Shown piece by piece: positions 60,201-62,554 of a stretch of 64,000 nucleotides of DNA; the first letter of the stretch is position 1, and every line of letters starts with the position of its first letter. Source of the stretch: Octopus vulgaris (taxonomy: Eukaryota); the NCBI GenBank assembly GCA_951406725.2, contig OX597822.1, positions 30,070,001 to 30,134,000 of the forward strand. Direction: 5' to 3'. A model generated the notes under the pieces. It ran no database searches. It was not told the DNA's origin and was given only the letters and a program-made list of their open reading frames with translations. A program made the translations under genes and the position numbers.

Positions 60201-62554
60201 TGGTCAAAGAATAATATTCTCCTCTAATTCCTAGATGCCTGTAAACTAAAACCAGACTTGTCGTCTACTAATTCTTCTGTATAACTAGAACCCCTTTTTT
60301 TTTTTTCTTTCTTCTTTCTTCTTTTTCTTTTTTTCTTCTTTTTCTTTTTTTCCCTTCCTTCCCTATTTCTTTCTCTTCTCTCTTTTTTCTTTTCCTTATT
60401 CTTATTCTCTTTTTCCTTTTCTCTTCTCTTTGAGTCCCCCTTTCCCCCCTTTTTGCTCCCTCCTCTTTTATTTTCTCTCTTTTTATTTTCTCTCTTTTCT
60501 TCTATGCCCTTCCCTTTTCTATTCTATACAGCTCTAGTAAGCCCTTCAGCCTTTAAAAGTTAAAAGTTAAATAGCTACAGCCTCTTGTGAATAGCAGTAA
60601 TGTGATTAATGTGGCAAATACCTAATCATATAGCAAGAATTGATACCTACCTCATTGTGTTCAACCATTGATAAATTTATCGCCTGTGAATATGAAATTC
60701 CTTGGAAATTTACACCTACACCATTGGAAATTGTGCATCTATACAAAGGATTAATTCACCCTCTCTGTAATGCTAATAAGCAGGAATTGAAACCCACCTC
60801 GTTGTAATTAACAATGGATAAATTTGCTTTCTGTGAGTATGTAATCCCTCATCATATCTCTGGAAATTCATATGTGCACTATGGATTGGGTCACCTTCTC
60901 TGTGATGCTATTAAGACTTTTTTAAAATTCTGTGATAAGACTGCACATCATCTTTAAAGAACTTTAATGAACTTTTGAAATCTGTTTATGTTACTTAATT
61001 ATCTACATTACTTCATGAGTATAGCCTCAACCACTAGGATGTCTAGAGAACTCACATGTATTTTAGCTGATGAGTACGGGACACGTTTATATGCTGTAAT
61101 TTTTGCAACTTTTAATAAAACCTGTCCTTGTATGAAACGATTGTACTAAAAACCTATCCATTCTTGTTGCTTCATTCTCGCGTATATATATATATATATA
61201 GAAGGAGCTTCTACAGGACTAGGACTGTTTCATTCAAGAGAAATCTTGAGGAAGCTTCCTGAAGATTTCTCTTGAATGAAACAGTTCTAGTCCTGTAGAA
61301 GCTCCTTCTATATAATAAATTAATTTTACTCTGCTATGTGTTGAGTACCTTATTTACTGTGGTTAACCCCGAATCAACCCGGGACCTACATATATATATA
61401 TATATATATATATATATATATATATATATGCACATATACATACATGTATGTACATACCTACATATATATGTATATATACATGCATAAATGGGTACAGGAC
61501 ATCATAAAAACGTTGAACACAATGAGAAACGAAAACATAAAACAGAAACGAACTTTTTTTTCGACGGTGTTTTGCACAAGTTATGCATACTAAGACTGCA
61601 CCGGAAAACATCACCCAACACAAGGGTAAAGTAAAAATACTTGCCGAACATACTTCACTGTACAATCCAGCTTGGAAGTATGTCGTTTGCAAATCTAACT
61701 TGCCTACTCGACCATGCCTTCTGAAATATATTCAGCGAAAGCATGAGGCTGTTGACACGTTCTTTTATTTTTTCATTTGTTTCAGTCATTTGACTGCGGC
61801 CAAGCTCGGGCACCACCTTAAGAGGTTTTCGTCGAACAAATCCACCCCAGGATTTATTCTTTGTAAGACTAGTACTTATTCTATCGGTCTCTTTTGCCGA
61901 ACCGCTAGCCTACGGGGACATAAACACACCGACATCGGTTGTGAAGCGACAAACACAGGCACAAACACATAAATACATACATAGATGCATACACACACAC
62001 ACACACACACACACACACACACACACATATATATATATATATATATATATATATATATATACAACGGGATTCTCGCAGTTTCCGTCTACCAAATCCACTC
62101 ACAAGGCTTTGGTCGGCCCGAGGCTATGGCAGAAGATGCTTGCCTATGGTGCTACGCAGTGAAACTGAACCCGGAACCATGCGGTTGGGAAGCAAGCTTC
62201 TTACTACACAGCTACGCATGTTTAATTCTTTAAATCTATCTTGTAGGTTTATGGGATTATGAGGAGGACGAGTTCTACAACTTTAATCAAAACAGCAACT
62301 CCCATGCACAAGAACATGCGAAATATTTCGATGATGACAGAAAATTACGGTGGTCTTATATCGATTTCTGGAATTGTCCCTTTTGTGGAAATGATATTTG
62401 TATTTATGCAGATCTGCCAACAAACATACTGTTGCGCTTTCAAAGTGCCGTAGCAAAATATCCATTTCAAAGTCAATTTATATTAGGAGAATTTCTAAAA
62501 TCTTACAGATTTTTAGATACAGAGACACTGTTTCGTATTTCACGTTATGAGTAG
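16950..62554 (+). CDS. 12-exon gene: tandem FAM71/GARIN-like (PH-like) repeats plus split CDC25-type RasGEF domain, ~1122 aa
   Basis: join(16950-18239,19955-20013,24795-24856,36819-36903,41349-41472,42030-42158,47993-48126,51234-52140,53703-53769,55301-55440,57621-57684,62247-62554) = 3369 nt. All introns are GT-AG and all phases agree, giving one open frame. Confidence 0.8.
18510..19325. mobile_element. Family C SINE (-) 18510-18911 and family A SINE dimer (+) 18964-19325
   Basis: Matches other copies in the window. Confidence 0.85.
19955..20013 (+). CDS. Exon 2 ([19 protein letters not shown])
   Basis: ttttttccag acceptor, gtaata donor, phase 0 to 2. Confidence 0.7.
20106..20660 (+). mobile_element. 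Family A SINE trimer
   Basis: One head followed by tandem ~180-bp body units. Confidence 0.85.
21316..21668. mobile_element. Dispersed repeat with internal inversion, probably Penelope-associated
   Basis: 21316-21412 matches 38087-38190 in direct orientation; 21420-21665 matches 38220-38460 in reverse orientation. Confidence 0.6.
21670..24138 (+). mobile_element. 5'-truncated R4/Dong-like LINE (RT plus restriction-like endonuclease), flanked by (TAA)n
   Basis: [45 protein letters not shown] and QKIALLGT motifs with stops and frameshifts. Confidence 0.85.
23315..23546 (-). mobile_element. Family A SINE inserted in the LINE
   Basis: 17-bp TSD taataattagaatattt. Confidence 0.9.
24795..24856 (+). 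CDS. Exon 3 ([20 protein letters not shown])
   Basis: ttctttatag acceptor, gtaata donor, phase 2 to 1. Confidence 0.65.
24930..25650 (-). mobile_element. Family A SINE (24930-25161) and family B-related SINE (25340-25650)
   Basis: Matches other copies in the window. Confidence 0.8.
27167..27425 (+). mobile_element. tRNA-derived SINE (same subfamily as 42581-42826)
   Basis: Head ggaggcgcatggcttagtggttagg..gtttcgattcc. Confidence 0.85.
27860..28898 (-). mobile_element. Non-autonomous Helitron
   Basis: 3' hairpin gaccc.gcaacga.gggtc plus CTAG; reverse-complement copy of 46421-47577. Confidence 0.85.
28975..29880 (+). mobile_element. Penelope-like reverse transcriptase fragment with inverted duplication
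   Basis: [13 protein letters not shown] and [22 protein letters not shown] motifs; 28980-29215 is an inverted copy of ~29610-29850. Confidence 0.8.
34474..36683 (+). mobile_element. Composite Helitron: two TC 5' ends (34474, 35838), one 3' end, PIF1-type helicase fragment
   Basis: ORF 36086-36607 has AILAPRN and [20 protein letters not shown]...CNGTRL; hairpin gccc.gagcaacgccgggc then CTAG|T at 36683. Confidence 0.85.
35482..35837. repeat. ~165-bp tandem repeat, 2.1 copies, inside the Helitron
   Basis: Units start at 35482, 35647 and 35813. Confidence 0.9.
36819..36903 (+). CDS. Exon 4
   Basis: ttttacag acceptor, gtaagt donor, phase 1 to 2 ([27 protein letters not shown]). Confidence 0.75.
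38087..38590. mobile_element. Dispersed repeat related to 21316-21668 and 61490-61560
   Basis: Shared terminus gtacagga.gtca.aaaacgt next to (TA)n. Confidence 0.6.
41349..41472 (+). CDS. Exon 5: start of RasGEF catalytic domain
   Basis: [27 protein letters not shown] fits the elA.qLT....lf..I...El pattern; phase 2 to 0. Confidence 0.9.
41605..41836 (-). mobile_element. Family A SINE
   Basis: TSD approximately ttatattttatacc. Confidence 0.85.
42030..42158 (+). CDS. Exon 6 (RasGEF)
   Basis: [38 protein letters not shown] fits the V.teI....R...i..f pattern; phase 0 to 0. Confidence 0.9.
42581..43640 (+). mobile_element. tRNA-derived SINE 42581-42826 and family C SINE 43178-43640
   Basis: Matches other copies in the window. 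Confidence 0.85.
45010..45046 (+). ncRNA. Degenerate hammerhead ribozyme motif
   Basis: TTGACGA-aGAGC-tcc-GCTC-GAAAC; core C3 and stems I/III are decayed. Confidence 0.4.
45597..46402. mobile_element. SINE (+) 45597-45915 and SINE (-) 46095-46402
   Basis: tRNA-like heads and shared cacgttgctccagtccactcag block. Confidence 0.8.
46421..47577 (+). mobile_element. Non-autonomous Helitron with ~140-bp internal 5' duplication
   Basis: A|TC start, subterminal hairpin, CTAG|T end. Confidence 0.9.
47993..48126 (+). CDS. Exon 7 (RasGEF)
   Basis: [33 protein letters not shown] fits vA..c..l.NFn...Iv.al...i..l..TW; phase 0 to 2. Confidence 0.92.
48246..48593. mobile_element. MITE with ~120-bp TIRs and 6-bp TSD AATTAT
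   Basis: ggga.ttttcgctttga.cggca ... tgccggtcaaagcgaaaa.atcc. Confidence 0.85.
48695..48927 (-). mobile_element. Family A SINE
   Basis: TSD tatgcatgtattta. Confidence 0.88.
50724..51155. mobile_element. Related MITE with ~29-bp perfect TIRs, 6-bp TSD AATTCA and internal TTAGGG-like repeats
   Basis: gggatcttttcggtttgaacggcagtttt ... aaaactgccgttcaaaccgaaaagatccc. Confidence 0.9.
51234..52140 (+). CDS. Exon 8: RasGEF NF..YR..L..PP.IP segment followed by long insertion
   Basis: [22 protein letters not shown]; ttttttcag acceptor, gtaagt donor, phase 2 to 0. Confidence 0.92.
52178..53240 (+). mobile_element. Tandem array of family A SINEs (three heads, about five body units)
   Basis: Heads near 52178, 52612 and 53027. 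Confidence 0.88.
53703..53769 (+). CDS. Exon 9 ([22 protein letters not shown])
   Basis: Weak aaag acceptor, gtagga donor, phase 0 to 1. Confidence 0.6.
54000..54383 (-). mobile_element. Family B SINE
   Basis: Reverse complement of 2287-2668. Confidence 0.88.
54518..54625 (+). ncRNA. Variant or degenerate type I hammerhead ribozyme
   Basis: CTGAAGG at 54530, stem II AAAGG.CGTTG/CAACG.CTTTT, then GAAAC-GATC-GTA; stem I imperfect. Confidence 0.55.
55301..55440 (+). CDS. Exon 10 (acidic, Ser-rich)
   Basis: tatacag acceptor, gtaatt donor, phase 1 to 0. Confidence 0.65.
55575..55789 (-). mobile_element. Family A SINE
   Basis: Core and head in reverse orientation. Confidence 0.85.
57352..57565 (+). 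mobile_element. Family A SINE inserted in (ATT)n
   Basis: Flanked on both sides by (ATT)n. Confidence 0.85.
57621..57684 (+). CDS. Exon 11 ([21 protein letters not shown])
   Basis: ttattaatag acceptor, aag|gtaaga donor, phase 0 to 1. Confidence 0.65.
58030..59250 (+). mobile_element. Full-length decayed mariner transposon
   Basis: TIRs tt..g.ttggcaagaaagt.atttc, TA flanks; WVLH.L, RIITSD and [14 protein letters not shown] motifs with stops. Confidence 0.9.
59420..61180 (+). mobile_element. Probable 5'-truncated Penelope-like element ending in a hammerhead-bearing terminal repeat
   Basis: Bounded by (TA)n; starts with [21 protein letters not shown] (resembles the GIY-YIG C-terminal E...I...LN motif); diverged ~147-bp internal repeat at 60633 and 60780. 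Confidence 0.55.
61061..61151 (+). ncRNA. Type I hammerhead ribozyme with intact core
   Basis: Stem I TTTTAG/CTAAAA; CTGATGA 61067-61073; stem II GTACGGGACA/TGTCCTTGTAT; GAAAC-GATT-GTA; predicted cleavage after 61145. Confidence 0.8.
61201..61308. repeat. 108-bp near-perfect palindrome (54-bp arms, 2 mismatches, no spacer)
   Basis: Centred on GGAAG|CTTCC between 61254 and 61255. Confidence 0.95.
61253..61303 (+). ncRNA. Second type I hammerhead motif, in the palindrome's right arm
   Basis: AGCTTC-CTGAAGA-tTTCtcttGAAt-GAAACAG..CTGTA-GAAGCT; stem II is short with a U-U closing pair. Confidence 0.6.
61770..62220 (-). mobile_element. Family C SINE
   Basis: Reverse complement of the 14868-15303 type; ends ~25 bp before exon 12. 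Confidence 0.85.
62247..62554 (+). CDS. Exon 12 (terminal; RasGEF C-terminal segment)
   Basis: atcttgtag acceptor, phase 1; [12 protein letters not shown]...[21 protein letters not shown]...[38 protein letters not shown]. This frame is absent from the ORF track. Confidence 0.85.

What the first reader, a model, noticed from the sequence alone, without database searches (positions are those of the whole stretch)
61195..61314. Palindrome made of a hammerhead and its antisense copy mutated at catalytic G5
Seen: 54-bp arms with two mismatches. The + strand reads CTGAAGA (intact core); the - strand copy reads CTCAAGA, so one of the two mismatches hits core G5, a position established as essential. 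Ribozyme and hairpin folds are mutually exclusive. Inference: a self-silenced ribozyme or switch and a likely ADAR/Dicer substrate, ~50 bp from another hammerhead whose cleavage would release it near a new 5' end. It probably arose as an inverted Penelope terminal repeat.
Basis: partly seen in the sequence, partly recalled or inferred. Interest (0 to 1): 0.75.

Follow-up and report, generated by a model that had tools for sequence, protein, structure and literature searches.

The report
Twin-primed Penelope retroelement hairpin insertion
This palindrome is one of many hundreds of near-identical head-to-head insertions of a young jumping gene, its broken ribozyme base is private to this copy rather than a shared design, and the joints across the family suggest that such palindromes likely form when two short DNA copies run off the capped start of the element's RNA and anneal to each other.

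Summary
The palindrome is real: 60-nt arms, two mismatches. It is not a special switch. It is one of about 950 head-to-head mini-insertions of a young Hydra-clade Penelope-like retroelement in (TA)n.

- G5 is changed in 3 copies against 3,911 intact; G5C is unique to this locus. The hairpin outcompetes the ribozyme fold by about 68 kcal/mol either way.
- The nearby hammerhead belongs to another family that shares the TA target.

The family is the informative part:
- 44 of 47 palindromes pair one long arm with one short arm.
- None of 80 arm ends runs past base +1, the first base of hammerhead stem I.
- A TATA box lies 29 nt upstream of +1.
- 32 of 41 solo junctions carry an untemplated G at -1, the known mark of a reverse-transcribed cap.

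Best model (inferred, 0.7): two cDNAs, primed from both nicked strands at two internal start sites on capped sense RNA, run off the cap and anneal through AGCT. That would replace the published antisense self-priming idea for Penelope palindromes. No RNA-level test was possible.

The parts
61195..61256 (-). Short arm: element bases +1 to +62 (hammerhead copy up to the TATATA that merges with the target). Carries two private changes.
   Evidence: Short arms in other copies end at about +62 to +73.
61253..61389 (+). Long arm: element bases +1 to +137 (hammerhead plus the 'tail' up to the second 3' end)
   Evidence: 99% identical to the pLTR of the full-length copy L191. 68 of 135 arms end at +137.
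61253..61256 (.). AGCT, self-complementary overlap of the two arms; its A is the inferred transcription start (+1)
   Evidence: Same junction in 11 of 47 palindromes. TATA at -29 in the parent. Untemplated G at -1 in 32 of 41 solo junctions.
61253..61303 (+). Type I hammerhead. Stem I 61253-58/61298-303; core CTGAAGA 61259-65; stem II 61267-69/61274-76, closed by a U-U mismatch; GAAA 61278-81; stem III 61281-84/61293-96; predicted cut 61297/61298.
   Evidence: Activity not tested.
61206..61256 (-). Second hammerhead copy, with G5 changed to C (61248) and a loop III change (61223)
61340..61340 (+). Third near-private base change, in the tail of the long arm
   Evidence: 72 of 75 aligned arms differ from the window here
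61183..61200 (.). (TA)n target, left flank; shared with the 3' end of the upstream family
61390..61430 (.). (TA)n target, right flank
59420..61182 (+). 5'-truncated copy of a different Hydra-clade PLE (family B): endonuclease C-terminus, 3' UTR and its own hammerhead at 61061-61151. A neighbour, not part of the palindrome unit.

Best explanation
The palindrome is a 195-bp head-to-head insertion of a young Hydra-clade Penelope-like retroelement in a (TA)n tract, likely made when two short cDNAs ran off the capped 5' end of the element's RNA and annealed through AGCT. SHOWN: both arms are element pLTR sequence starting at the first base of hammerhead stem I; one arm ends at +62 and the other at +137; the parent has a TATA box at -29, the hammerhead at +1 to +51 and the ORF start at +184; family copies joined to the target at +1 mostly carry an extra G. 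INFERRED: the pLTR promoter makes a capped RNA starting at +1; the element's protein nicks both strands of (TA)n and primes reverse transcription at two internal sites (about +62 to +72, and +137), probably on one RNA; both cDNAs stop at the cap and gain a C; their 3' ends pair and are filled in. In the product both hammerheads are predicted to be locked in a 60-bp hairpin in either transcript, so the core is free to drift, and G5C is most likely a neutral private change or a base error.
For: Family size: 3,911 exact core copies; 958 head-to-head matches with both cores intact, a few double-counted; 42 of the first 100 listed cores sit in pairs within 58 nt. Parent: L191 is pLTR-ORF(713 aa)-pLTR with RT and Hydra motifs. 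Two 3' ends: 44 of 47 palindromes are long+short, 2 were classed short+short and 1 long+long. Either end can carry the ORF side: the short end in L082 and L084, the long end in L085, so both ends are RNA-primed. Stop at +1: of 80 arm ends, 44 keep +1 and 36 are trimmed; the base at -1 is G in 25, partner-supplied A in 18, C in 1 and the parental T in 0. Solo junctions to (TA)n: G in 32, A in 4, T in 4, C in 1 of 41, p = 2e-12 against 1/4; two of the G rows are one local duplication. TATA-like box at -29 in 63 of 64 promoter-bearing matches, with diverged spacers of equal length. An independent public run holds a contig joining TA + G + the +1 base. Literature: untemplated 5' G is read as cap copying for L1 and SVA (PMC4859970, passages); a PLE protein nicks and extends both strands from two adjacent internal start sites and is modelled as a dimer (PMC11167929).
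Against: No RNA data show a start or a cap at +1. The extra G could be a plain RT preference for adding C at any run-off end. The two arms share the loop III variant in 41 of 42 scorable palindromes although two variants are about equally common; this requires one RNA or one source locus per event and is also what fold-back predicts. The 29-nt junction type (13 of 47) fits a 2-bp fold-back hairpin. The internal start sites are inferred from copy ends and from a different clade (Poseidon). This locus has more private changes than most: 2 arm-to-arm substitutions, seen in 2 of 35 comparable palindromes. The upstream family gave too few junctions (12 rows) to show the same signature.
Confidence: 0.7

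Rival explanations
1. Fold-back or self-priming: one cDNA starts at +137, runs to the RNA 5' end, folds back and copies itself until its TATATA anneals to the target. In the published form (PMC3846280), an antisense transcript self-primes.
For: Arms share subfamily variants in 41 of 42. The 29-nt junction type fits a GA/TC hairpin with a 3-nt loop. Self-priming is the published reading of PLE junction palindromes (passages).
Against: In 7 of 13 junctions of that type the arm that would be the copy is the long arm, which a short template cannot give; one of the other 6 (L130) is ambiguous. The short-end side carries ORF sequence absent from the long side in L082 and L084. The AGCT overlap in this window leaves no loop for fold-back. 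A G at -1 beside a sense TATA box points to a sense template.
Confidence: 0.15
2. The palindrome is itself a mobile, MITE-like or retrozyme-like unit copied whole from one or a few master palindromes.
For: 15 of 15 other loci picked by identity to the query are perfect palindromes with the same centre.
Against: Those loci were selected for that centre. Palindromes taken in genome order show 21 junction types in 47, variable short-arm ends and three subfamilies.
Confidence: 0.05
3. One reading: a self-silenced ribozyme switch in which G5C is functional, released by the upstream hammerhead and processed by ADAR or Dicer.
For: The hairpin is very stable. Read-through from the upstream element's end could cross it (inference).
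Against: G5C is a single copy. The two other G5-changed copies are G to T, in unrelated contexts. The chance that one of two random changes hits one of 26 core bases in 120 is 39%. The 68 kcal/mol gap allows no switching. No linkage to the upstream family in 12 of 12 loci.
Confidence: 0.03
4. Assembly artefact: the palindrome, or only the G5C base, is a long-read error.
For: Palindromes are error-prone in long reads (general knowledge). This locus is at the high end for private changes. Read support for the G5C base itself was not obtained.
Against: Hundreds of palindromes have unequal arms and 21 junction types, which a read fold-back would not give. Contigs of independent public runs cross head-to-head joints of this family (pieces 5 and 6).
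Confidence: 0.03

Closest known systems
Hydra clade of C-terminal EN+ Penelope-like elements (Craig et al. 2021, PMC8557442; seen: passages, section 11 whole, supplement hits), including Hydra-1_Obim
   Same: RW[K/R], DKT, GLYRDD, CxCX5C linker, CxxC and CxH around the endonuclease, (TA)n target, canonical hammerhead; by eye the same protein blocks as the aligned Hydra proteins in the supplement.
   Different: A different family: its N-terminus and hammerhead motifs were not found in that supplement. The element is about 4.8 kb pLTR to pLTR because of a microsatellite-rich 3' UTR, against under 3 kb reported. It is young and high-copy.
Inverted, 5'-truncated pLTR with optional 'tail' in EN+ PLEs (PMC8557442 Fig. 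2 legend; Adineta vaga Penelopes, PMC3846280; passages seen)
   Same: Head-to-head inverted terminal repeat, a palindrome at the junction, and a tail on one end only.
   Different: Here the whole insertion is the two termini (195 bp), the tail is about 70 nt rather than 30-40, and junctions pile up at one base with an extra G. PMC3846280 proposes self-priming on an antisense template; these data favour two cDNAs on capped sense RNA.
Poseidon PAc internal initiation (Frangieh et al. 2024, PMC11167929; parts 1-2 of 4 and passages seen)
   Same: Two RT start sites downstream of the hammerhead that define the tail; both target strands nicked and extended; AT-rich target.
   Different: Different clade. 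The parts I read and a term search show no discussion of inverted products or caps. PAc initiation is not homologous to the target, whereas both ends here are TA-like. The PAc ORF starts inside the hammerhead; here it starts at +184.
PLE-associated type I hammerheads (Cervera and de la Pena 2014, PMC4209133; part 1 of 4 seen)
   Same: Type I motif in the pLTR; that paper already notes dual hammerheads 100-700 bp apart on opposite strands.
   Different: Here stem III has 4 bp with a partly palindromic loop, stem II is closed by U-U, and the two copies overlap at stem I.
L1 twin priming (Ostertag and Kazazian 2001; title seen in a reference list; content recalled)
   Same: Two target strands prime two cDNAs that are joined by microhomology.
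   Different: L1 twin priming gives non-overlapping inverted segments from the RNA's 3' end; here both cDNAs copy the same 5' end, giving a palindrome.

Membership tests
Penelope-like element (EN+) | Single ORF with RT and GIY-YIG endonuclease between direct pLTRs | tested here: met
   L191: pLTR 899-1729, 713-aa ORF, pLTR 5663-6511. Domains assigned by motif and by eye against published Hydra alignments. Pfam and PDB searches gave no relevant hit.
Penelope-like element (EN+) | Hammerhead in the pLTR | tested here: met
Penelope-like element (EN+) | 5' truncation, partial tandems, inverted copies, tail on one end | tested here: met
Hydra clade | RWK-like and DKT motifs, CxCX5C linker, CxxC and CxH, C-terminal endonuclease | tested here: met
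   RWR 38, DKT 116, CxCX5C 567, CxxC 667, CxH 695, against section 11 of PMC8557442
Hydra clade | (TA)n insertion preference | tested here: met
Hydra clade | Placement within the clade in an RT phylogeny | not tested
   No tree was built; the reference proteins were seen only in a paper supplement.
Type I hammerhead ribozyme (right arm) | Conserved core CUGANGA...GAAA...UH with three stems | tested here: met
   All core bases present; stem I 6 bp, stem II 3 bp plus U-U, stem III 4 bp. The usual G-C pair closing stem II (recalled) is absent. No Rfam match.
Type I hammerhead ribozyme (right arm) | Self-cleavage | not testable with these tools
   Indirect only: 38 distinct TA-joined copies begin at the cut site against 10 at a control TA, confounded by a local microhomology.
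Type I hammerhead ribozyme (left arm) | Intact core G5 | tested here: not met
   C at G5. That G5 is essential is recalled; the review passages read did not state it.
Non-LTR retrozyme | Tandem head-to-tail units, each with a hammerhead | tested here: not met
   This locus is head-to-head. A tandem 271-nt array of the same family exists elsewhere.
MITE / DNA transposon | Fixed terminal inverted repeats and equal ends across copies | tested here: not met
   Unequal arms, variable short ends, 21 junction types in 47
miRNA / hairpin-RNA gene | Processed small RNAs from the hairpin | not testable with these tools
   Rfam miRNA hits are all below gathering scores and reflect any long hairpin.

The most novel reading that the evidence does not exclude
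In this Penelope-like family the capped transcript starts exactly at hammerhead stem I, and reverse transcription begins only 62 to 137 nt downstream, so the default product of transposition is a pair of retrovirus-like strong-stop cDNAs. Joined to each other they give mini-palindromes (about 40% of sampled cores); joined to the target they give solo ends with a cap G; jumping to ORF RNA they give partial tandems. One rule would then explain the head-to-head palindromes, tails and partial tandems of PLEs without an antisense template. A second run-off at the hammerhead cut site would record cleavage in vivo.
Probability: 0.55. Interest if true: 0.68.

Novelty: new member of a known kind. Interest (0 to 1): 0.42.

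Why it matters
The locus itself is ordinary: one copy of hundreds, with a private mutation. The family matters because the origin of head-to-head palindromes in Penelope-like elements was left open in print (self-priming on an antisense template or a sense template; PMC3846280), and a later paper lists complex tandem and inverted structures as unexplained (PMC8557442). A young family with thousands of near-identical copies gives base-level junction statistics that separate the models and name exact in vitro substrates. If right, it also means this genome has gained about a thousand perfect 60-bp hairpins as a by-product, a possible source of double-stranded RNA against the element (inference, untested).

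Tried and rejected
1. Rfam: nothing at the gathering threshold in 64 kb; at E <= 10 only generic hairpin families, no hammerhead.
2. The long ORFs in L086 and L089 first looked like the parent. They are unrelated endonuclease-RT LINE insertions (the CR1/L2-type label is recalled). P0001 from L092 is the parent of the upstream family, not of the palindrome.
3. Pfam and PDB sequence searches did not recognise the parent proteins.
4. Small deletions at the hammerhead cut site (5 of 135 arms at +46, 7 of 135 at +49) looked like scars of RT crossing cleaved RNA. They were not listed at 1% or more in contigs of four public runs and coincide with a local hairpin, so I did not use them.
5. RNA evidence: no RNA holder listed; only contigs. 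This says nothing on expression.
6. Read support for the G5C base was not obtained, so a base error remains open.
7. The upstream family gave 12 rows (8 distinct places) of target-joined 5' ends, and its parent has a G at the relevant position, so the cap test was uninformative.
8. Loci were chosen by identity to the query and were left out of the per-position counts, as was the tandem array. Five of 40 palindromes with broken arms were left out of the arm-to-arm count.
9. Not-in-print claim: nine searches listed no paper describing cap-G run-off or twin strong-stop cDNAs for PLEs. Most subscription papers (older Arkhipova and Evgen'ev papers, Lunse et al. 2017) are not in the library, and bioRxiv supplements were closed.
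Full report
OBSERVATION. The palindrome is real. Arms 61195-61254 and 61255-61314 are 60 nt with no spacer and two mismatches, 61223/61286 and 61248/61261. It folds at -98.7 kcal/mol, z = -22. The right arm holds a type I hammerhead with all core bases: stem I of 6 bp, stem II of 3 bp closed by U-U, stem III of 4 bp, predicted cut 61297/61298. The left arm is its reverse complement with C at G5. A second hammerhead-like motif lies at 61061-61151. Rfam names neither.

IT IS A HIGH-COPY REPEAT. The window is G000:C9:30070001-30134000 of a 2.8-Gb genome. 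A 27-nt core pattern has 1,958 + 1,953 exact matches, with 0 for the reversed control. A pattern for two intact cores head to head within 30 nt has 958 matches per strand, a few double-counted. Of the first 100 listed cores, 42 sit in such pairs. Fifteen of 15 other loci picked by identity to the query are perfect palindromes with both cores intact, each in (TA)n.

G5C IS PRIVATE. The G5C variant in its palindromic context occurs once, here. With any base other than G allowed at G5, there are 3 matches genome-wide; the other two are G to T. The locus has three near-private changes in 195 bp (61223, 61248, 61340). Arm-to-arm substitutions run at 8 in 1,505 sites, and 2 of 35 comparable palindromes have two, so this copy is at the high end but not unique (5 of 40 broken ones left out). 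The chance that one of two changes falls on one of 26 core bases in 120 is 39%. With the hammerhead forced, the palindrome folds at -30.9 against -98.7 kcal/mol, so both ribozymes are predicted to be locked whatever G5 is. I obtained no read support for the base, so an assembly error remains possible.

THE NEIGHBOUR IS ANOTHER FAMILY. The upstream motif has 1,164 first-look candidates and 40 identical copies listed. It ends in (TA)n in 12 of 12 loci viewed, none with the palindrome family beside it. It spans about 59420-61182 and encodes the C-terminus of a different protein, 42% identical to the palindrome's parent in the RT core. The 49-nt distance is explained by two families sharing one TA tract.

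THE PARENT. Copies that read past the tail lead into an ORF. L191 is a full pLTR-ORF-pLTR copy with a 713-aa ORF. It has RWR, DKT, GLYRDD, CxCX5C, CxxC and CxH, the features given for the Hydra clade (PMC8557442 section 11), and by eye it follows the aligned Hydra proteins in that paper's supplement. No tree was built. Motifs of this family were not found in that supplement. Layout, counting the first base of stem I as +1: TATA-like box at -29, hammerhead +1 to +51, short 3' end about +62 to +73, long 3' end +137, Met at +184.

HOW THE PALINDROMES FORM: what the sequences show. (1) Two 3' ends. Of 135 arms, 68 end at +137 and 59 at +62 to +73; 44 of 47 palindromes have one of each. In longer inverted insertions the ORF is on the short-end side in L082 and L084 and on the long-end side in L085, so both ends are primed on RNA. 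(2) A hard stop at +1. In 40 palindromes taken in genome order, 44 of 80 arm ends keep +1 and 36 are trimmed; none shows the parental T at -1, although the pattern allowed about 10 nt more per arm. (3) An extra G. Of 41 copies joined to (TA)n at +1, 32 have G at -1, 4 A, 4 T and 1 C; neither parent nor target supplies a G; p = 2e-12; two G rows are one local duplication. A contig of an independent run shows the same joint. (4) The TATA-to-+1 distance is 29 nt in 63 of 64 promoter-bearing matches, across spacers that differ in sequence. (5) Partial tandems also join ORF sequence to +1 (L164, L173, L176).

INFERENCE. Untemplated 5' G is read as copying of the cap in L1 and SVA (PMC4859970, passages). 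A purified PLE protein nicks and extends both target strands from two adjacent internal start sites that define the tail, and is modelled as a dimer (PMC11167929, parts 1-2 of 4). Together these suggest the following: a capped RNA starts at +1; two cDNAs start at about +62 to +72 and at +137; both run off the cap; their ends pair, through AGCT in this window and in 11 of 47 sampled junctions, or through GA/TC (which needs the extra C) in 13 of 47; fill-in gives the palindrome. The arms share the loop III variant in 41 of 42 scorable cases, so both cDNAs probably come from one RNA or one source locus.

AGAINST, AND RIVALS. No RNA start was observed; only contigs were available. The G may reflect an RT preference for adding C rather than a cap. 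Concordant arms also fit fold-back of one cDNA, and self-priming on an antisense template is the published reading of such palindromes (PMC3846280, passages). However, in 7 of 13 junctions that fit a fold-back hairpin the would-be copy is the longer arm. A self-copying palindrome is unlikely given 21 junction types in 47. An artefact of the whole structure is unlikely given unequal arms and contigs of other runs crossing such joints. The upstream family did not give a usable test of the cap signature.

IS THE RIBOZYME ACTIVE? Untested. Thirty-eight distinct TA-joined copies begin at the predicted cut site, against 10 at a control TA 8 nt upstream (p = 3e-5). Of 4 places viewed, 2 begin exactly at the base after the cut with untemplated filler (L184, L187), 1 is explained by a 6-nt microhomology with the partner arm (L186) and 1 is ambiguous. 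This is a moderate hint only. Small deletions at the cut site in the assembly were not listed in independent contigs and were set aside.

COMPARISON AND VERDICT. Inverted truncated pLTRs with a one-sided tail are a standard PLE arrangement (PMC8557442), and opposite-strand hammerhead pairs were noted in 2014 (PMC4209133, part 1 of 4). The locus is therefore a new member of a known kind, and the switch reading is not supported. What I did not find in nine literature searches is a transcript start at stem I with cap-G run-off and twin cDNA joining as the source of PLE palindromes; the library lacks most subscription papers, so this is a limited negative. Other papers seen: bioRxiv 10.64898/2026.07.22.740005, part 1 of 5, supplements not seen; PMC6155905, passages. 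That G5 is essential, the TATA-to-start spacing and the content of the L1 twin-priming model are recalled. Earlier scan notes held nothing on this sequence and only other hammerhead-bearing PLE families of this genome. Interest 0.42: low for the locus, moderate for the family as a test of an open mechanistic question.

Noticed in passing
G000:C8:91475367-91483204 (L180-L183): Array of 271-nt units (TATA box, hammerhead, tail, ORF start) of the same family: 29 pattern matches, 5 on one strand then 24 on the other. A retrozyme-like derivative whose parent element is in hand.
   Followed up: partly
window 59420-61182; L031-L042, L092: A second young Hydra-clade family with a long-stem-II hammerhead and an asparagine-rich linker in its protein (P0001). 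It also forms inverted copies (6 of 12 loci viewed).
   Followed up: partly
L184 (G000:C2:62516050-62516520), L187: Head-to-head insertions whose arms begin exactly at the base after the predicted hammerhead cut, with AT-rich filler between them; possible run-off on cleaved RNA.
   Followed up: partly
element positions +46 and +49 in 135 arms: Recurrent 1-3 nt deletions at the cut site, mostly in junction-context arms; not listed in independent contigs; may be assembly error at a local hairpin.
   Followed up: partly
L081, L087, L091: Near-perfect palindromic insertions of 6.7, 3.0 and 1.1 kb of the same family.
   Followed up: no
L086:3915-7780, L089:4204-7251: Apparently intact endonuclease-RT LINE ORFs (1,039 and 1,015 aa, stop to stop) inserted inside copies of this element.
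   Followed up: no
window 26155-26640: Weak translated match (22% identity, E 6e-6) to the parent's C-terminal half; probably an old PLE remnant.
   Followed up: no
all subfamilies, element +14/+25: Stem II is closed by a U-U mismatch while loop II varies (at least five 4-nt variants seen), so the non-canonical closing pair is kept.
   Followed up: no
window 61760-62220 and 63440-63850: Two inverted copies of an abundant short interspersed repeat about 1.2-1.9 kb apart.
   Followed up: no
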